DNA of 51,762 nt from a virus (lineage: Duplodnaviria > Caudoviricetes). Positions within the stretch are counted from its first letter, which is position 1; each line of letters opens with the position of its first letter. Location: positions 1 to 51,762 of the IMG/VR virus record IMGVR_UViG_3300020213_000040; one strand, 5' to 3'. The notes beneath the pieces were generated by a model, which was not told where the DNA came from, searched no databases, and saw nothing but the letters and a program-made list of their open reading frames with translations. Shown here one piece after another: positions 2,711 through 35,108 of the stretch. A program made the position numbers and the translations under genes.

Positions 2711-2804
2711 AGGTGGCTGATAGTCCCCATAGAAACATTCGGCGGGGACACCCGTCTTTAGACGGGCGGGGAAGCCGAAGTCTCCTTTCTGATTAAACGA
2801 ACGG

Positions 2805-2833
2805 TTGCAAGAGATAATTGCGCGTGGTATAAT
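2805..2833 (+). promoter_or_regulatory. sigma70-type promoter of tnpA
   Basis: TTGCAA-17 nt-TATAAT with extended -10 TG, 10 nt before the ATG. Confidence 0.75.
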
Positions 2834-2842
2834 TTGTTCACT

Positions 2843-3232
2843 ATGAGTGAACAAACGCGACACGCCCACTACAACATCAACTACCACCTTGTGTGGTGTC
2901 CGAAGTTTCGCCGCCCTGTTTTGGCTGGCGATGTTGGAAAACGTCTCACCGAACTCATTCCGCAGCAAGTGGAAAAGTTGGGCGGGCGTGTTTTGGAATT
3001 GGTCGTCCAACCGGATCACGTTCACCTGTTTGCGACGTTCCCGCCCACGATTGCGATTTCTCAAATCATGCACGGGTTGAAAGGTGCAACCGCTTTCCAA
3101 CTGCGGAAAGAGTTCCCGCATCTGAAAAGCCGTCTGCCTAGCTTGTGGACGCACTCGTACTATGTTGGCACTGCTGGTTATGTGTCGGCAGAAACAATTC
3201 GTCGTTACATTGACGACCAGAAGGGGCAGTAG
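2843..3232 (+). CDS. tnpA: Y1 HUH transposase TnpA
   Basis: YHLVWCPKFRR, PDHVHL (HUH motif), LWTHSYYVGTAG, catalytic Tyr in IRRYI. Confidence 0.97.
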   Translation: MSEQTRHAHYNINYHLVWCPKFRRPVLAGDVGKRLTELIPQQVEKLGGRVLELVVQPDHVHLFATFPPTIAISQIMHGLKGATAFQLRKEFPHLKSRLPSLWTHSYYVGTAGYVSAETIRRYIDDQKGQ

Positions 3233-3235
3233 CCC

Positions 3236-4414
3236 GTGAACCTGACCTACGAATATCGCCTGTTTACGCGCAAGGACGAAGCGCAAGCTCTCAACAATCT
3301 GCTTGAACAGGGGCGTGATGTTTACAATTGGGCGTTGGCTCAATGTAAAACTAGTTACGAAACGTCGGGTAAGCACGAAACGGGCTTGGGCCAGTGGGCG
3401 TATTTCCGCGAATGGCGCAAACAACCCGGTATTCTGCTCAATGCCAGCAGCTTGCAACAGCTTCTGCGACGGTTGGACAAGTCCTACAGCGCGTTCTTTC
3501 GTCGCATCAAAGCAGGTGAAACACCGGGACACCCACGCTTCAAACCCGCACAGCGTTTCAACAGCGTCGAGTACACCTACGGTGATGGTTGCAAGTTCAC
3601 ACCCGTAGCGGGAAACAGCGCCACGCTGTATGTGCAGAACATTGGCCACATCAAAGTCAAAATGCACCGCATTCTGCCTGAGAACGCGGTGATTAAGCAT
3701 GTTCTCATCAAGCGCAAAAACCGGAAGTGGTTCGTGTACCTGATGCTTGAACTGCCCGATATTGTCTTTGTGTCCAACGGTCTGCCTGCTGTTGGTGGTG
3801 ACATGGGTCTGCTGCGCTTGCTCACGCTCTCTGATAATACGCTGATTGACAACCCGCGCTGGCTGCGACACACGTTGAGTGAACTTCGCACCGCCCAACG
3901 GCGGTTGAGTCGTCGCAAAAAGGGCAGTCACCGACGACGGAAAGTCGCATTTCAAGTTGCACTTCTGCATGAGCATGTGTCCAAACAGCGCAAAGACTTC
4001 TGGCACAAACTCACGTTCGGTTTGGTCAACACATACGGATTGGTCGCGCTTGAAGACCTTGAACTCAAGTTTATGCTGCTCAATCGCAAGCTCTCCCTCA
4101 GTGCTCACGACGCAGGGTTGGGTATCTTCCAAAGTCTGCTGCGCTACAAAGCTGTAAAAGCTGGTTGCGCGATAGACTTGGTAGACCCCGCTTATACGTC
4201 GCAGGTGTGCTCCGGCTGCGGTTGCTTGGTTGAGAAAGCCCTGTCTGAACGTGTGCATCGCTGTCCTAATCCTGACTGCCTGCTTGTTCTTGACCGGGAT
4301 GTCAATGCGGCCCGGAATATATTGTCTCTAGCATTAAAGTCGGCGGGGACACCGCCGTCAGGCGCTAAGGTAGCGGATCGCCGCAAGCCTAGCCTGAGAA
4401 GCTCCCGTCTTTAG
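3236..4414 (+). CDS. tnpB: TnpB RNA-guided endonuclease
   Basis: RuvC-I GGDMG, RuvC-II ALEDL, zinc finger CSGCG...CPNPDC, RuvC-III DRDVNAARNI, all intact. Confidence 0.95.
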   Translation: MNLTYEYRLFTRKDEAQALNNLLEQGRDVYNWALAQCKTSYETSGKHETGLGQWAYFREWRKQPGILLNASSLQQLLRRLDKSYSAFFRRIKAGETPGHPRFKPAQRFNSVEYTYGDGCKFTPVAGNSATLYVQNIGHIKVKMHRILPENAVIKHVLIKRKNRKWFVYLMLELPDIVFVSNGLPAVGGDMGLLRLLTLSDNTLIDNPRWLRHTLSELRTAQRRLSRRKKGSHRRRKVAFQVALLHEHVSKQRKDFWHKLTFGLVNTYGLVALEDLELKFMLLNRKLSLSAHDAGLGIFQSLLRYKAVKAGCAIDLVDPAYTSQVCSGCGCLVEKALSERVHRCPNPDCLLVLDRDVNAARNILSLALKSAGTPPSGAKVADRRKPSLRSSRL

Positions 4415-4453
4415 ACGGGAGAGTTGTCACACACGGACATTGAAAGGATTGAG

Positions 4454-10382: not shown

Positions 10383-11929
10383 TGGAAGAACTCCAAGTTT
10401 CAAGCGATCTGAAGCGCGCCTACGAAGCGTTGAGCGGCAAACAAGCTCATTGCAATACGTACTGGTCGTACTACGATGGCGTGCATCCGATGGTCTACAG
10501 CGCCGAGCGGCTGCGGCAAGTCTTCGGCAGTGAGTTAACCAAGTTCTCTGAAAACTGGTGCGCCGTTGTCATTGACAGCGAAATCGAACGTATCGAGCTG
10601 CGCGAGATCACGGTCTCCAAGAACGAAACGGCAACGAGCCGACTTGCCGAACTCATGGAAAGCACGGGCTTGGGGTTGGACGCTGAAGACATTCACAAGG
10701 CGAGCTTGGTTTGCGGCGAGGCATTCCTGTTCATCTGGCGTGAGGAGGCTGAGGAGGTAGAAGCCTACTACAACGACCCCAGACTCGCTCACGCCTTTTA
10801 CGATGAGGAAAACCCGCGAAAGATGTCGTTCGCGGCGAAGTGGTGGGTTGGCAGCGACGGCAAGCGGTATCTCAATCTCTACTACCCGGATCACTTCGAA
10901 TACTACGTCTCACAGGGTAAATCCGAGGATGTAAACGCCGCAACGTCGTTCATGGCGACTGAAGAAGGGCGGGCAGATAATCCGAAAGGCAAAATACCCG
11001 TTTTTCATTTCAGAACGGAACGGCGCACGATCAAAAGCGAACTGGTCAACGTGATCGAGCCGCAGGACGCGATCAATAAGTTGTTCGCCGATATGATGGT
11101 GGCTGCGGAGTTCGCAGCCTTCCTCCAGCGTTGGGTTATTTCGAACGCCGATCTTAAGAAGCTGAAAAGCGCTCCGAATGAAATTTGGAAGATCCCGGCT
11201 TCGGATGGCGCAGAGCAGAATACTGAGGTTGGCGAATTCAGCGCCGTTGAGTTGAAGAACTTCCTCGACGCGATGGATAAGCTGGCGAACACCATCGCTG
11301 TTATCACCCGCACACCGAAACACTACGTCTTTAGTCAGAGCGGTGACCCGTCCGGCGAGGCACTCATCGCTATGGAGGCACCTTTGAATAAGAAGGCTGC
11401 CGGCCACATCAAGCGCTGGCTCGAAACGTGGCGTGCAGCCGCCGCGTTCCTGCTCGAACTGGACGGCGCGGGCGAGATCAAGCAGAGTGAAATCATGCCT
11501 GTGTTCGCTCGCCCGGAGACAGTGCAGCCGCGTACAACGGCGGAGATCGTCGAGATCAACGTTCGCAGTGGCATCCCGCTCCGACTGGCGCTGCGTCGTG
11601 AAGGCTGGACAGACGCCGAGATTAAGGCCCTCGACGCCGAGCCGCCGGATAAGGCAGAACTGATCGAGATGGCCAACGACGTGGCCGATCATCTCGACGA
11701 TCTAACATACCTCAAGACCGTCGCCCCTGCCTTTGGGTGGAATGAGCAAATGGTCAAGCAGATCGCGGCAGGTCTGGCCCTTGAACGCGAGTTGAAAGCA
11801 CGAGCCGAAGCGCGAGGGTTCGCTGAAGGCATCTTTGGCGCGGATGACGAGGGAGGTGAGGGCGATGGCAGCGAAGAAGCCGAAGAAAACGCAGCCTCAA
11901 GGTCAGCGTTCGCATATCCCGGCACTTGA
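10382..11929 (+). CDS. Portal protein (SPP1 gp6-like)
   Basis: Follows terL; YYDGxH, ENWCAVVID, IPVFHF, SGEAL motifs. Confidence 0.9.
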   Translation: MEELQVSSDLKRAYEALSGKQAHCNTYWSYYDGVHPMVYSAERLRQVFGSELTKFSENWCAVVIDSEIERIELREITVSKNETATSRLAELMESTGLGLDAEDIHKASLVCGEAFLFIWREEAEEVEAYYNDPRLAHAFYDEENPRKMSFAAKWWVGSDGKRYLNLYYPDHFEYYVSQGKSEDVNAATSFMATEEGRADNPKGKIPVFHFRTERRTIKSELVNVIEPQDAINKLFADMMVAAEFAAFLQRWVISNADLKKLKSAPNEIWKIPASDGAEQNTEVGEFSAVELKNFLDAMDKLANTIAVITRTPKHYVFSQSGDPSGEALIAMEAPLNKKAAGHIKRWLETWRAAAAFLLELDGAGEIKQSEIMPVFARPETVQPRTTAEIVEINVRSGIPLRLALRREGWTDAEIKALDAEPPDKAELIEMANDVADHLDDLTYLKTVAPAFGWNEQMVKQIAAGLALERELKARAEARGFAEGIFGADDEGGEGDGSEEAEENAASRSAFAYPGT

Positions 11930-12215
11930 TTCGCTCCAGCTTGAGGCAGCGCTGACACGGCTCGAAGCTGCGCCGATCAGCTCACTTGGCAAAGAGTATA
12001 TCCGCCGGATGCTGCAAGCGGGTGCGAATCCGAACTCCGAGAGCGCCGACGTGGTAATCGCCACGCTTCAGCCAGAGGAACAGGAGAATATCGGCGTTAC
12101 CAGCCAGACGGTGCAGGCACTGACAGCAAGCATTACCAGTCGCGGCGGTGCGGCACTGCTCGCAATGGACGATGCAGCGTGGGAAGCGTTGGTGAATAAT
12201 GAGTCAGCTAACTAG
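11865..12215 (+). CDS. Hypothetical protein overlapping the portal 3' end
   Basis: GGAGGTGA RBS, ATG at 11865. Confidence 0.55.
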   Translation: MAAKKPKKTQPQGQRSHIPALDSLQLEAALTRLEAAPISSLGKEYIRRMLQAGANPNSESADVVIATLQPEEQENIGVTSQTVQALTASITSRGGAALLAMDDAAWEALVNNESAN

Positions 12216-12810
12216 CACCATTGCGCTGCTGTACCGAATGGAAACTGGCGACGTAAAGCAGCTTGAAGCGGCTCTGCTGGAACGGCGCAAAACGGCGTGG
12301 GTAAGCAGCCTCGCTAATCAGGCCCGGGCCCACAATTGCAATCGGACGCCGAACGCGCCTCGCCGTGAGGATCTGCGCGAGATTAAGCGCATGTGCAAGG
12401 CGGATGCGAAGAGCATCTCCAACACATGGAATAGGGAAGTTACCCGCGAGATTGAGCGGCTCTACAACGCGAATCCCAAGGGCAACCGGCAGTATTACTT
12501 CGCCAACCTCGAACGCTGGAACAGTGCGCGGGATCAGTGGAAGCTGCCCCAGATCTCGCTCACAACCGAGATGACGACGCGGGAATATGCCGCGCAGCGC
12601 TTTCGACAAATGAATTACGAGACCGCGCTACGGTTCTTATTTGATGGCCCGCCAACGACGTGCGTGGATTGCACGCGGCGCTTTGCAGCCGGACTTGTGA
12701 ATGAGAACTACGTGCGCCGATACCCGACGCCCAGACACATCGGCTGCCCACATACATGGCGCGTTGTCAATGTCCCGCAAATCGACTGCGCCGAGTTATG
12801 GCTCGGCTGA
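12199..12810 (+). CDS. Head morphogenesis / minor capsid protein (gpF-like)
   Basis: Position after portal; C-terminal TCVDC...PRHIGCPH motif. Confidence 0.7.
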   Translation: MSQLTSTIALLYRMETGDVKQLEAALLERRKTAWVSSLANQARAHNCNRTPNAPRREDLREIKRMCKADAKSISNTWNREVTREIERLYNANPKGNRQYYFANLERWNSARDQWKLPQISLTTEMTTREYAAQRFRQMNYETALRFLFDGPPTTCVDCTRRFAAGLVNENYVRRYPTPRHIGCPHTWRVVNVPQIDCAELWLG

Positions 12811-12826
12811 AAGGCTTGCGATGCAG

Positions 12827-12876
12827 GTGACATACTCCCCACAGCTAAAGCTGGGGGCTTCCCGCGCCGATTTCCG
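12827..12876 (-). mobile_element. 50-bp single-hairpin IS200/IS605-derived mini-element
   Basis: Minus strand: TCAC|CGGAAATCGGCGCGG-GAAG-CCCCCAGCTTTAGCTGTGGGG-AGTATG-TCAC. Confidence 0.75.
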
Positions 12877-13183
12877 GTGAGCATTCTCAAACACGTTGCC
12901 CACAAACGCGGGAAAGAAATCCGCACGATTGGGCGTTGGGAACGCACGACAGGCAAGTGTTCGGGCTGCGGTCATGTTCAAGCGCTGGAACTGCGGGAAC
13001 GCACGTTTCACTGTGACTCCTGTGACCTAATCATTGACCGCGACCACAACGCAGCAATTAACATCCAACGCGCCGGGGCATCGGCGCATACTACTTTAGA
13101 GGCCGTTAGTCGCGTCCGTAAAACGACGCGCAGCCTTGCTTGACGGTAGAAGCCCCCGCCTTTAGGCGTGGGGAGTATGTCAC
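12877..13183 (+). pseudogene. tnpB: 3' remnant of tnpB (zinc finger + RuvC-III) with an intact IS right end
   Basis: TTGKCSGCG...FHCDSC...DRDHNAAINI, then GAAG-CCCCCGCCTTTAGGCGTGGGG-AGTATG-TCAC. Confidence 0.9.
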
Positions 13184-13188
13184 TTCTA

Positions 13189-13212
13189 CGCCCTACGGGG
13201 CGCTTTTTGTTT
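13189..13212 (+). terminator. Intrinsic terminator
   Basis: CGCCC-TACG-GGGCG followed by CTTTTTGTTT. Confidence 0.6.
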
Positions 13213-13223
13213 GTGGAAATACT

Positions 13224-13500
13224 CAGGCGAGATGCCTGTTTATTGGTCAACGCGGGCGAGATGCCCGCACTTATCAAGGGCGAGATGCCCGATGGAGTCG
13301 AGAGCGAGATGCGAACACGACTTACAACAGTTCGGACGGCGCGGCGTAAGGACGCGGAAGCAATCGTTGATTTGTCCATCCGCCGGCGCTGGTTCGCCGA
13401 CGAGGGGCAGGCCGACGGCCAAAACGGTCAAGGTAATCAGGGCGATGACCCACAAAACGCAGGCGGCGAGAAGCCACCTGAAGGACAGGGCGAGATGCCC
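13224..13500 (+). promoter_or_regulatory. Array of six hairpins with C-GAGAW-G loops
   Basis: Hairpins at 13224, 13252, 13278, 13304, 13460 and 13488 with different stems and the same loop. Confidence 0.6.
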
Positions 13501-14001
13501 ACAACGTGGGAGGAGTGGTTGGCGGCACAGCCGGAAGCCGAGCGTGCGAAGATCACCAAGTTCTACGAAACCAAAACGGGCGCGCTGAAAGGCGCACTCG
13601 ATAAGGAACGCGAACAGCGCGAAGGGCTTGAGACTGACCTGCGTAAGCTGGCGAAAGGGCAGAAAGACGGCAGCGAGCCGCAGAAGGAGTTGGAGCGCGC
13701 AGCCGACGAACTGGCATTGGCCAATCGTCGCGCTGACTTCTTCCAAGCTGCTTCTTCTTCTGAACTCGGACTCGTCGATGTTGTTGCTGCATGGACGCTG
13801 ATGAGTGTAGATGCTGAATCCTACTTTGACCGCAAAGGTGCTCCGAACTTCGAGTTGCTGAAGCAGAAGCACCCCGCCTTGTTCGTGCAGCCCAAGCCGA
13901 TGCCGAAAGGCAACGGCGGAGCCGGAACAGGCTCAATTCCTGAAAACAGCAACCCCGATATGAACAAATTCATTCGACAGAGTGCAGGTTATCAAACGTA
14001 A
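13309..14001 (+). CDS. Capsid scaffolding protein
   Basis: Coiled-coil protein before the major capsid gene; start uncertain (13261, 13285 or 13309). Confidence 0.8.
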   Translation: MRTRLTTVRTARRKDAEAIVDLSIRRRWFADEGQADGQNGQGNQGDDPQNAGGEKPPEGQGEMPTTWEEWLAAQPEAERAKITKFYETKTGALKGALDKEREQREGLETDLRKLAKGQKDGSEPQKELERAADELALANRRADFFQAASSSELGLVDVVAAWTLMSVDAESYFDRKGAPNFELLKQKHPALFVQPKPMPKGNGGAGTGSIPENSNPDMNKFIRQSAGYQT

Positions 14002-14040
14002 CCCGCGGCCTGCCTCTGCACAGTCACCCGGAGGTGACAG

Positions 14041-14982
14041 ATGCCTTTCAACAACTCGCTTACCCGTACCGGGGTTCAAGCGCTCATCCCTGAAAGCGTG
14101 AGCCGGGACATTATTCAGGGTGTCCCGAAAGAGAGCATGATTATGCGGCTGGGGAAGAAATTGCCCAACCTGCCACAATCGGTCTCGCGTATGCCGGTGC
14201 TGTCGGCTCTCCCGACGGCATACTTCGTCAACGGCGATACGGGTTTGAAACAAACGACCCAGATGCTGTGGGACAACAAGTATTTGTATGTGGAAGAACT
14301 CGCGGTGATCGTTCCGATTCCCGAAGCGGTTCTTGCCGATACGTCCTATGACATTTGGGGCGAGGTCAAGCCGCGTATCATTGAAGCCTTCGGCGTTGCT
14401 TTTGACGCGGCGGTGATCCACGACACGAACGCGCCCGCGAGCTGGCCCGACGGACTTGTGACTGGCGCGACGGCTGCCGGTAATACCGTCGATCTCAGCG
14501 ATTCCGTTGATGTGTATGAAGCTGTCATGGGCGAAAACGGCGTGATTGCCAAAGTCGAAGAAGACGGCTTCATGGTTACGGGGCATCTAGCTTCACTGAC
14601 CATGCGTGGCAAGTATCGTGGTCTGCGTGACGAAAACGGTCAGCCGATCTTCGTCCAAACCATGCAGGCGACGACGACTTACGCCATTGATGGTCAGCCC
14701 GCCATCTTCTCGGAAAATGGCGCGCTAGACGCAACTCAAGCGCTTCAGATCAGCGGCAGCTTCCGAGAGTTGGTTTGGGCACCGCGTCAAGACATGTCGT
14801 ACAAACTCCTGACCGAAGCCGTTCTTACGGATGGCAGCGGTAACATCATTCTCAACCTCGCACAGCAGGACGCGGTGGCTTTGCGCGCCGTGATGCGCCT
14901 TGCGTGGCAGATCCCCAACCCGATCAACCGTGTGCAGCAAACGGAATCGGCTCGCTATCCGTTCGCCGTTCTCAAGCCATAA
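14041..14982 (+). CDS. Major capsid protein (HK97 fold)
   Basis: LIPESVSRDII, AYFVNGD, ELAVIVPIPE, LAQQDAVALRAVMRL; GGAGG RBS. Confidence 0.93.
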   Translation: MPFNNSLTRTGVQALIPESVSRDIIQGVPKESMIMRLGKKLPNLPQSVSRMPVLSALPTAYFVNGDTGLKQTTQMLWDNKYLYVEELAVIVPIPEAVLADTSYDIWGEVKPRIIEAFGVAFDAAVIHDTNAPASWPDGLVTGATAAGNTVDLSDSVDVYEAVMGENGVIAKVEEDGFMVTGHLASLTMRGKYRGLRDENGQPIFVQTMQATTTYAIDGQPAIFSENGALDATQALQISGSFRELVWAPRQDMSYKLLTEAVLTDGSGNIILNLAQQDAVALRAVMRLAWQIPNPINRVQQTESARYPFAVLKP

Positions 14983-35041: not shown

Positions 35042-35057
35042 GATTCCTCTGGGTTAC

Positions 35058-35108
35058 CCGAAAGAAGCGCCGTAAAGCCCCTACCTTTAGCTGTGGGGAG
35101 TATGTCAC
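35058..35108 (+). mobile_element. 51-bp single-hairpin IS200/IS605-derived mini-element (left/right end hybrid)
   Basis: TTAC|CCGAAAGAAGCGCCGT-AAAG-CCCCTACCTTTAGCTGTGGGG-AGTATG-TCAC. Confidence 0.75.

What the first reader, a model, noticed from the sequence alone, without database searches (positions are those of the whole stretch)
12827..12876. 50-bp one-hairpin element that may be both ends of an IS200/IS605 transposon
Seen: on the minus strand, TCAC, 15 nt, GAAG, one hairpin, 6 nt, TCAC. Known from IS608/ISDra2: the tetranucleotide 5' of the hairpin selects the cut site by base pairing (GAAG gives TCAC), and the IS608 left guide sits at +16 to +19. Here GAAG is at +16 to +19 from the left TCAC and also specifies the right TCAC. 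Inference: one hairpin and guide could program both cuts, giving a minimal non-autonomous ssDNA transposon, smaller than two-ended PATE/MITE derivatives and REP-like in form.
Basis: partly seen in the sequence, partly recalled or inferred. Interest (0 to 1): 0.8.

Follow-up and report, generated by a model that had tools for sequence, protein, structure and literature searches.

The report
Collapsed one-hairpin IS605 transposon relic
The 50-base hairpin element is real: it is the fused left and right ends of an IS605-type jumping gene that lost its middle, a kind of relic already described in salt-loving archaea and found here in a phage, with no sign that it still moves.

Summary
On the minus strand the order is TCAC, 15 nt, GAAG, an 8-bp hairpin with a bulged T, 6 nt, TCAC. 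The spacings (19 nt and 10 nt) equal those of IS608.

- The left TCAC is the first codons of a 5'-truncated tnpB (12877-13143).
- That remnant's own right end (13149-13183) is an inverted copy of the same hairpin.
- A second, decayed 51-nt copy lies at 35058-35108.
- The phage also carries a complete tnpA-tnpB element of another subfamily.

The hairpin family is abundant in Chloroflexota genomes: 119 stretches held an exact 23-nt match. Comparison with full-length and two-ended copies shows the unit is a left-end segment plus guide, one hairpin, and a right-end tail.

I found 15 such one-hairpin units. Most differ from each other, none is amplified, and 14 carry a guide that fits only the left cut site. 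Two-ended relatives reach 13 to about 35 copies per genome.

The same 52-bp "terminal-only PATE", made by deletion between the two palindromes, was described in Haloquadratum in 2011, along with the idea that it might move.

Verdict: a core-deleted relic and a new member of a known kind. Mobility is unproven.

The parts
12877..12880 (-). Left cut-site tetranucleotide TCAC (target or TAM position). On the + strand it is GTGA, the Val codon plus the first base of the Ser codon of the tnpB remnant.
   Evidence: In one search the relative L039 has TTC GTG AGT at the aligned codons, so GTGA belongs to tnpB.
12862..12876 (-). Left-end-type segment CGGAAATCGGCGCGG (15 nt).
   Evidence: It shares the 11-nt core AAATCGGCGCG with a left end that is present about 37 times in one Aggregatilineales genome. 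Its likeness to the other left-end family is weak: 161 of 2000 shuffles scored as well.
12858..12861 (-). Guide tetranucleotide GAAG, directly 5' of the hairpin foot.
   Evidence: G-N-N-G guides go with TCAC at 97 of 104 ordinary right ends.
12837..12857 (-). Subterminal hairpin: 8 bp, loop TTTA, extrahelical T in the 3' arm.
   Evidence: The left end of the full-length element L116 has the identical hairpin.
12827..12836 (-). Right-end tail AGTATG plus cut site TCAC.
   Evidence: Identical to the tail of all right ends found with the pattern.
12877..13143 (+). 5'-truncated tnpB holding the last 88 codons (zinc ribbon and the DRDHNAA motif).
   Evidence: Pfam PF07282 at E = 8e-17. It is 84% identical to the C-terminus of a 399-aa TnpB. 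Homology starts at 12877.
13149..13183 (+). Right end of the tnpB remnant: GAAG, hairpin CCCCCGCC/TTTA/GGCG(T)GGGG, AGTATG, TCAC.
13189..13210 (+). Terminator-like hairpin plus T run just beyond the right end. It probably terminates the upstream phage operon.
35058..35108 (+). Second one-hairpin unit in the phage: TTAC (35054-35057) | 16 nt | AAAG | decayed hairpin | AGTATG TCAC. It is intergenic and has no tnpB nearby.
   Evidence: The hairpin no longer folds: -2.7 kcal/mol and an open centroid structure.

Best explanation
The 50-nt unit is a terminal-only (core-deleted) derivative of an IS200/IS605-family element of the IS605/TnpB type that is common in Chloroflexota.

What the sequence shows: it keeps the left-end segment and guide, one subterminal hairpin, and the right-end tail with its cut site.

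What I infer:
[quoted passage not shown] These hairpins are roughly 21-nt direct repeats, and the event removed everything between them, much as a solo LTR forms.
- The parent, or the unit itself, had been placed by TnpA 3' of a TCAC chosen by its GAAG guide.
- The unit now lies back to back with a second, oppositely oriented relic of the same family, made of a tnpB 3' end, the omega-RNA region and a right end. This sits in a phage intergenic region between a 203-aa gene and its terminator.
- It is most likely inert. One TnpA dimer normally needs two hairpins, and a single guide cannot pair with both cut sites at the same time.
For: 1. Anatomy.
- Full-length relatives have left ends of the form T-Y-A-Y | 13-16 nt | guide | hairpin | ATATAAGGCG. 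Their right ends are guide | hairpin | AGTATG TCAC.
- The unit has the former's 5' half and the latter's 3' half.

2. The class recurs.
- Among the hits to the right-end pattern, 12 loci are one-hairpin units, 104 are ordinary right ends and 9 are other forms. Two duplicate rows were dropped.
- Two more one-hairpin units came from the second left-end family. With L130, already among the 12, that makes 3 of that family's 37 left ends.
- None of the units has tnpB or tnpA within the 3.5 kb held on either side, apart from the remnant beside the finding.

3. Chimeric origin is visible. In genome G001 the two-ended copies have a left hairpin CCCCTGCC/TTCA/GGCATGGGG and a right hairpin CCCCCGCC/TTTA/GGCGTGGGG. 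The one-hairpin copies L054 and L067 have the left 5' arm joined to the right loop and 3' arm.

4. No amplification.
- Two-ended forms reach 13 aligned copies, and 34 of 37 left ends of the second family continue into a core.
- One-hairpin forms are singletons with different joints. The one exception is an identical pair.

5. Guides.
- 97 of 104 ordinary right ends have G-N-N-G with TCAC.
- Of the 12 one-hairpin units, 11 carry left-end-type guides (AAAG 5, AAAA 3, GAAA, TAAG, GATA) that do not fit their TCAC.

6. The phage's other copy has a hairpin that no longer folds.

7. Precedent. Haloquadratum has 52-bp terminal-only PATEs. [quoted passage not shown]
Against: - No before-and-after pair was found for this family, so the deletion route is inferred here and not shown.
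- Its left boundary falls exactly after a TCAC inside tnpB. That points to a TnpA-type joining, or to a 4-nt microhomology. I cannot tell whether a two-ended parent or the 50-nt unit itself was joined there.
- L054 and L067 are identical over 54 nt at two sites.
- The Haloquadratum authors report six strain-specific insertions that are all the 52-bp form and suggest it can move.
- Stem quality does not separate the classes: 5 of 12 one-hairpin units against 52 of 104 right ends have perfect stems.
- The likeness of the 15-nt segment to left ends rests mainly on one family, through the 11-nt core. It is weak against the other family.
Confidence: 0.7

Rival explanations
1. One reading: the unit is an active, minimal, non-autonomous single-strand transposon. 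One hairpin and one GAAG guide program both the left and the right TCAC cut, and a TnpA supplied in trans moves it.
For: - GAAG fits TCAC on both sides with IS608 spacing.
- The guide rule holds in nature.
- The left junction sits exactly 3' of a TCAC in tnpB.
- The same phage encodes an intact Y1 TnpA at 2834-3232. It is 43% identical to a TnpA linked to this right-end type.
- One identical pair of one-hairpin units lies at two sites (L054 and L067).
- Haloquadratum has six 52-bp-only insertions.
- A related Y1 enzyme, TnpA-REP, cuts 5' or 3' of a single REP hairpin (PMC8266576 passages).
Against: - No second copy of this version was found in the window, in IMG/VR, or among the 119 genome stretches that hold the right-end pattern.
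- No empty site was found.
- 14 of 15 one-hairpin units have guides unfit for their right cut.
- No one-hairpin form is amplified.
- In IS608 a stable synaptic complex needs both ends, each with its own guide and cut site (PMC3201880 passages).
Confidence: 0.15
2. It is only the right end of a second, inverted IS copy. The body of that copy was lost 15 nt upstream of the guide, and both the 15 nt and the left TCAC are coincidental.
For: - Guide GAAG, the hairpin and the tail are all right-end-like.
- The 15-nt segment is only weakly like the main left-end family: 161 of 2000 shuffles scored as well.
Against: - The 15 nt do not resemble the sequence upstream of ordinary right ends: 337 of 1000 shuffles scored as well.
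- They share an 11-nt core with a proven, roughly 37-copy left end.
- A TCAC exactly 19 nt from the hairpin foot, matching the guide, has a chance of about 1 in 256.
Confidence: 0.1
3. It is a REP/RAYT-type repeat, or simply a phage regulatory hairpin such as a terminator for the 203-aa gene.
For: It lies 17 nt after a stop codon. In form it is REP-like: a tetranucleotide followed by a hairpin.
Against: - No T run follows it on the + strand, and the terminator scan placed the terminator at 13189-13210 instead.
- The tetranucleotide is GAAG and not the GTAG of REPs.
- There are only 3 copies in the phage.
- Its sequence family is plainly that of IS605/TnpB ends.
Confidence: 0.03

Closest known systems
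Terminal-only 52-bp PATEs of Haloquadratum walsbyi (HqIRS46 and the collapsed ISHwa23), Dyall-Smith et al. 2011, PMC3119063 (section 30 read; supplementary tables not seen)
   Same: - About 50 bp in length.
- Both termini of an IS605-type element surround a single near-terminal palindrome.
- They derive from PATEs or from tnpB-bearing elements by loss of the core.
- The question of whether they move is left open in the same way.
   Different: - The hosts are bacterial (Chloroflexota) and phage, not haloarchaeal.
- The ends belong to an unrelated sequence family.
- Here the guide and cut-site anatomy can be read, and it shows that most such units are mismatched at the right cut.
- This family has no strain pair that shows the deletion.
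IS608 and ISDra2 ends (IS200/IS605 family), PMC3201880 (passages read)
   Same: - A subterminal imperfect hairpin.
- A 4-nt guide 5' of the hairpin foot.
- The left cut 19 nt 5' of the foot and the right cut 10 nt 3' of it.
- A and G directly 3' of the right hairpin.
- A cut site of the form T-N-A-N, with positions 2 and 4 set by guide positions 1 and 4.
   Different: IS608 has two hairpins with different guides for different cut sites. Here one hairpin carries both flanks. The hairpin sequences are unrelated.
Two-ended PATEs: Geobacillus (PMC10055086, passages), Halanaerobium 271-nt PATE (PMC7290912, passages), and the 180-330-bp PATEs found here
   Same: They are non-coding derivatives of the same elements, and they share the same left and right end sequences.
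   Different: They keep both hairpins and usually the omega-RNA region, and they are amplified. The finding keeps one hairpin and no core.
REP sequences and their Y1 enzyme TnpA-REP (RAYT), PMC8266576 (passages read)
   Same: A single hairpin is preceded by a tetranucleotide that helps choose cut sites. Cuts are possible 5' or 3' of the hairpin.
   Different: REPs have GTAG, CT or CA dinucleotide cut sites, hundreds of copies and a domesticated enzyme. None of these was seen here.

Membership tests
IS200/IS605 family ends | Subterminal imperfect hairpin on one strand, with an extrahelical base. | tested here: met
   An 8-bp stem with a bulged T on the minus strand. The bulge sits in the other arm when the + strand is read.
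IS200/IS605 family ends | A guide tetranucleotide 5' of the hairpin foot that matches the cut-site tetranucleotide. | tested here: met
   GAAG with TCAC on both sides. Family-wide covariation gave 38 of 41 at guide position 4 against site position 4. G-to-C at guide position 1 against site position 2 holds in the TCAT/GATA family. 97 of 104 right ends have G-N-N-G with TCAC.
IS200/IS605 family ends | Cut-site spacing as in IS608: left about 19 nt 5' of the foot, right about 10 nt 3' of it. | tested here: met
   19 nt and 10 nt, against the PMC3201880 passages. In the family the left spacing ranges from 16 to 21 nt.
IS200/IS605 family ends | Insertion 3' of the target without target duplication, shown by an empty site. 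| tested here: inconclusive
   No empty-site allele was found.
IS200/IS605 family ends | Linkage of the end sequences to tnpA (Y1) and/or tnpB. | tested here: met
   32 of 104 right ends follow a tnpB. 2 loci also carry tnpA. The finding abuts a tnpB remnant.
Terminal-only (core-deleted) PATE | Left terminus, one palindrome and right terminus, with no core and no gene. | tested here: met
Terminal-only (core-deleted) PATE | Origin by deletion between the two palindromes of a two-ended parent. | tested here: inconclusive
   Chimeric hairpins in L054 and L067 fit this origin. No parent-and-product pair at one locus was found.
Active non-autonomous transposon | Several near-identical copies at different sites, or insertion polymorphism. 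| tested here: not met
   This version is a single copy. One-hairpin forms are singletons apart from one identical pair.
Active non-autonomous transposon | Cleavage and circle formation by a cognate TnpA. | not testable with these tools
   This needs a bench assay.
REP/RAYT | A conserved GTAG 5' of the hairpin, high copy number and a linked RAYT gene. | tested here: not met
   The tetranucleotide is GAAG and the phage holds 3 copies. I did not look separately for a RAYT. The one Y1 gene in the phage sits in a tnpA-tnpB element.

The most novel reading that the evidence does not exclude
This copy is the one natural one-hairpin unit whose single guide (GAAG) fits both cut sites. It could therefore be a self-consistent 50-nt transposon that a TnpA moves in two sequential single-end reactions, as TnpA-REP handles a REP. 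On this reading, its exact junction with a TCAC inside tnpB records such an insertion, or a TnpA-made adjacent deletion.
Probability: 0.12. Interest if true: 0.7.

Novelty: new member of a known kind. Interest (0 to 1): 0.3.

Why it matters
The finding adds little new biology. One-hairpin relics of IS605-type elements have been in print since 2011.

It is useful in three ways:
- It shows that such relics also occur in bacteria and their phages and make up roughly 8-10% of end copies. Genome annotators may otherwise mistake them for terminators or REPs.
- The Chloroflexota families give a clean natural confirmation of the IS608 guide rule. The two variable guide positions covary with the two variable cut-site positions, and all four combinations occur.
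- The relics, the tnpB remnant and a complete tnpA-tnpB element tie this microbial-mat phage to Anaerolineae-type hosts, and they show repeated IS605 traffic into phage intergenic regions.

If the GAAG/TCAC-symmetric copy proved mobile, it would be the smallest known transposon of this family and a bridge to REPs.

Tried and rejected
- Rfam search of 11500-14500, both strands: only two chance-level lncRNA matches.
- INPHARED phages, blastn of 11900-14100: no match.
- Relatives of the 203-aa gene in IMG/VR: one locus, L139, at 49% aa identity. It is syntenic but carries about 1.4 kb of other genes at this spot and no IS sequence. It is too distant to serve as an empty site.
- Metagenome scan with the left flank: two unrelated chance matches, L140 and L141.
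- Sequencing runs and laying of contigs:
  - Only Logan contigs were available, from four microbial-mat runs, and X1 may be the source sample.
  - The contigs break at the hairpins.
  - No joint skips the unit.
  - X2 and X3 have no cover over 12770-13004 apart from the hairpins.
  - None of this bears on presence or absence of alleles.
- Orthologous loci of a bacterial one-hairpin unit (L054) in 40 relatives: at most 75% identity and no synteny, so it was useless for finding empty sites.
- Flank patterns for the L012 virus and for the window's second copy: only the known three contigs, and none, respectively.
- Patterns for the finding's own left half, and for its junction with tnpB, in IMG/VR: none.
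- Left-end 3' signature in the window: chance level only.
- The idea that one-hairpin stems are more mismatched than ordinary right ends: not borne out, 5 of 12 against 52 of 104 perfect.
- A tblastn extension of tnpB homology upstream of 12877 into the 203-aa gene's end: judged spurious.
- Supplementary tables S6 and S9 and Text S1 of PMC3119063 could not be seen. They may show whether the archaeal 52-bp forms keep matching guides.

Full report
**The observation.** Read on the minus strand, window 12880-12827 is TCAC, then CGGAAATCGGCGCGG, then GAAG, then CCCCCAGC-TTTA-GCTG(T)GGGG, then AGTATG, then TCAC. The hairpin is the predicted minimum-energy and centroid structure. Its energy alone is not unusual: z = -1.25, and 23 of 200 shuffles fold as well. 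The spacings are 19 nt from the left cut to the hairpin foot and 10 nt from the foot to the right cut. These are the figures given for IS608 in passages of PMC3201880. That paper also places A and G directly 3' of the right hairpin, as here.

**What surrounds it.**
- The window is a 51.8-kb, roughly 94% complete virus record with an SPP1-type portal gene just upstream.
- The + strand at 12877-13143 encodes the last 88 residues of a TnpB. Pfam PF07282 matches at E = 8e-17. The fragment is 84% identical to the C-terminus of a 399-aa protein, and 63 further full-length relatives were found, with Anaerolineae and Chloroflexota among the named sources.
The relative L039 has TTC GTG AGT at the same codons.
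- The remnant's right end is at 13149-13183: GAAG, CCCCCGCC-TTTA-GGCG(T)GGGG, AGTATG, TCAC. It is a 35-nt inverted copy of the finding, 89% complementary, and the stem differences are compensatory.
- A terminator-like hairpin follows at 13189-13210.
- A third copy, without any tnpB, lies at 35058-35108 after TTAC and carries the guide AAAG. Its stem no longer folds.
- The phage also holds an apparently intact tnpA (2834-3232; PF01797 at E = 2e-38) and tnpB (3236-4414). This element ends GAAG, hairpin, AGTTG, TCAC at 4430, but its stem sequence is different.

**The family.**
- The 23-nt loop, 3'-arm and tail pattern occurs in 119 stretches of the species-representative genome collection. Nearly all are Anaerolineae, Aggregatilineales or other Chloroflexota MAGs.
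- With the viral and window copies there are 127 hits.
- After dropping two duplicate viral rows, 104 are ordinary right ends, 12 are one-hairpin units and 9 are other forms.
- Of the 104 right ends, 32 follow a tnpB (21 reach its N-terminus). Another 30 have at least 1.3 kb of held upstream sequence with no tnpB, so they are PATE-like. The remaining 42 sit too near a contig end to classify.
- Two loci also carry a Y1 tnpA.
- Aligning 16 tnpB-less copies from one genome, G001, showed that 13 are a roughly 270-bp two-ended PATE. Its left end is TTAT | CAGAAAAGCGCCGT | AAAA or AAGA | CCCCTGCC-TTCA-GGCATGGGG | ATATAAGGCG.
- Full-length elements have the same left-end design after TTAT or TTAC. 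One of them, L116, has exactly the finding's hairpin in its left end.

**What the unit is.** The one-hairpin units have the left-end segment and guide, a single hairpin, and then the right-end tail AGTATGTCAC. In G001 the chimeric origin is visible. L054 and L067 join the left-end 5' arm (CCCCTGCC) to the right-end loop and 3' arm (TTTA-GGCGTGGGG).

The finding's 15-nt segment is only weakly like the main left-end family: 161 of 2000 shuffles scored as well. It is unlike the sequence upstream of ordinary right ends: 337 of 1000 shuffles scored as well. It does share the core AAATCGGCGCG with the one-hairpin unit L130. That core turned out to be the left end of a second PATE family in G001, with these features:
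- 39 pattern hits, and none in the reversed control.
- 37 of the 39 are hairpin-bearing left ends, all after TCAT and all with guide GATA.
- 34 of the 37 continue into a core.
- 3 are one-hairpin units (L130, L188, L195), each with a different tail.

**The guide rule.**
- Over 41 left ends, guide position 4 against cut-site position 4 is A-T in 24 and G-C in 14, with 3 exceptions. Two of the exceptions look like boundary artefacts.
- Guide position 1 against site position 2 is A-T in 34, G-C in 2 and G-T in 2, with 3 others. Two spurious rows and the duplicate rows were dropped, and L098 was not captured.
- The TCAT/GATA family adds about 37 more G-C cases.
- At right ends, 97 of 104 have G-N-N-G with TCAC.
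- This agrees with the IS608 pairings quoted. There the first guide base pairs with the second cut-site base, the second guide base pairs with the first, and the third cut-site base (A) is unpaired.
- The same rule argues against general mobility of one-hairpin units. 11 of the 12 from the right-end search, and both extra ones from the second family (guide GATA with tails ending TCAC or TTAC), carry a guide that fits the left site only.
- The finding is the sole exception.

**Is it mobile?**
- I found no second copy of this version and no empty site.
- One-hairpin units are singletons with different joints. The exception is one identical pair, whose identity is also what a crossover confined to the 5-nt stretch shared by the two hairpins would give.
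- Two-ended relatives reach 13 to about 35 copies in the same genome.
- An unrelated virus lineage (L012, L017, L019) has its own one-hairpin unit and shares nothing else with the window.
- This pattern fits recurrent, independent collapse better than spread.

**Prior art.** Section 30 of PMC3119063 (read) describes exactly this in Haloquadratum walsbyi.
- A PATE whose two near-terminal palindromes form a 22-bp direct repeat loses its core and one repeat copy in one strain but not in the other.
- A 1500-bp tnpB element is shortened to a 52-bp PATE by deletion between 19-bp repeats that resemble the palindrome.
- The authors remark that six strain-specific insertions, all in the 52-bp form, may mean that it can be mobilised.

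Searches for other print descriptions of single-hairpin IS605 derivatives turned up three further items: free-standing IS605 stem-loops in Borrelia plasmids (PMC2775950, abstract only), a 271-nt two-ended PATE (PMC7290912, passages), and omega-RNA-bearing PATEs (PMC10055086, passages).

**Local history (inferred).** At least three events are needed: an insertion in minus orientation (the unit or its parent), an insertion of a tnpB element in plus orientation, and a deletion. I see two possible orders:
- The minus-strand element inserted after the TCAC inside tnpB, and a later deletion removed the 5' part of tnpB up to the unit's right end.
- Both elements inserted side by side in the intergenic region, and a deletion joined the unit's own target GTGA to the GTGA inside tnpB through 4-nt microhomology. 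A TnpA-made joining of the left end to that TCAC would give the same result.

The data do not decide between them. The related phage L139 has different genes and no IS sequence at this position.

**Verdict.** It is wrong about novelty, and mobility is unsupported. The unit is a terminal-only IS605-family PATE, most likely an inert relic (0.7). The reading that this symmetric copy can still move is not excluded (0.12-0.15).

Noticed in passing
window 2731-4430 (boundaries inferred); tnpA 2834-3232, tnpB 3236-4414: A complete IS605-type element of another subfamily, with an intact Y1 tnpA and a 392-aa tnpB (29% identical to the remnant's relatives). Its right end is GAAG, CTCCCGTC-TTTA-GACGGGAG, AGTTG, TCAC. 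Its left end probably follows CCAT.
   Followed up: partly
window 13226-13312 and 13489-13498: Five copies of GGCGAGATGCC-like 10-11-mers at 24-29-nt spacing, between the IS relic and the scaffold-like gene, with one more inside that gene. They may be an operator-like or translated repeat.
   Followed up: no
L150 (G002:C486:3723-3764) and L151/L138 (G001:C118:1700-1741): 42-nt palindromes in which the right-end tail and its reverse complement flank one hairpin, as if two inverted right ends shared a hairpin. They lie in two genomes with unrelated flanks. This suggests hairpin-to-hairpin recombination also occurs between inverted copies, such as the pair in the window.
   Followed up: partly
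L021, L058, L073, L092, L111, L131 (mostly at contig ends): A class in which the right-end loop, 3' arm and tail are preceded by GTGGGTAATG(T/C)ATAGCC in place of a complementary 5' arm. I have no explanation for it.
   Followed up: no
L184 (G001:C9, about 4216-4400): A left-end hairpin of the TCAT/GATA PATE family is interrupted by an insert of roughly 95 nt, with the 3' arm duplicated. This recalls the small repeats that target PATE palindromes in Haloquadratum.
   Followed up: no
L029, L044, L057 and other loci of G001 (the 270-bp PATE): The two-ended PATEs keep a promoter-like TATAAT box and the conserved region that precedes the right end of tnpB-bearing copies, probably the omega-RNA scaffold. 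They may supply guide RNAs in trans.
   Followed up: no
L043 (a contig of a MAG labelled Campylobacterales): This is the only clear right-end match outside Chloroflexota among the 119 stretches. It may reflect horizontal transfer or a binning error.
   Followed up: no
runs X1-X4: Summed contig depth over the right-end hairpin (13146-13192) reaches hundreds to about 22,000 in the microbial-mat runs. This IS family is very abundant in those communities.
   Followed up: no
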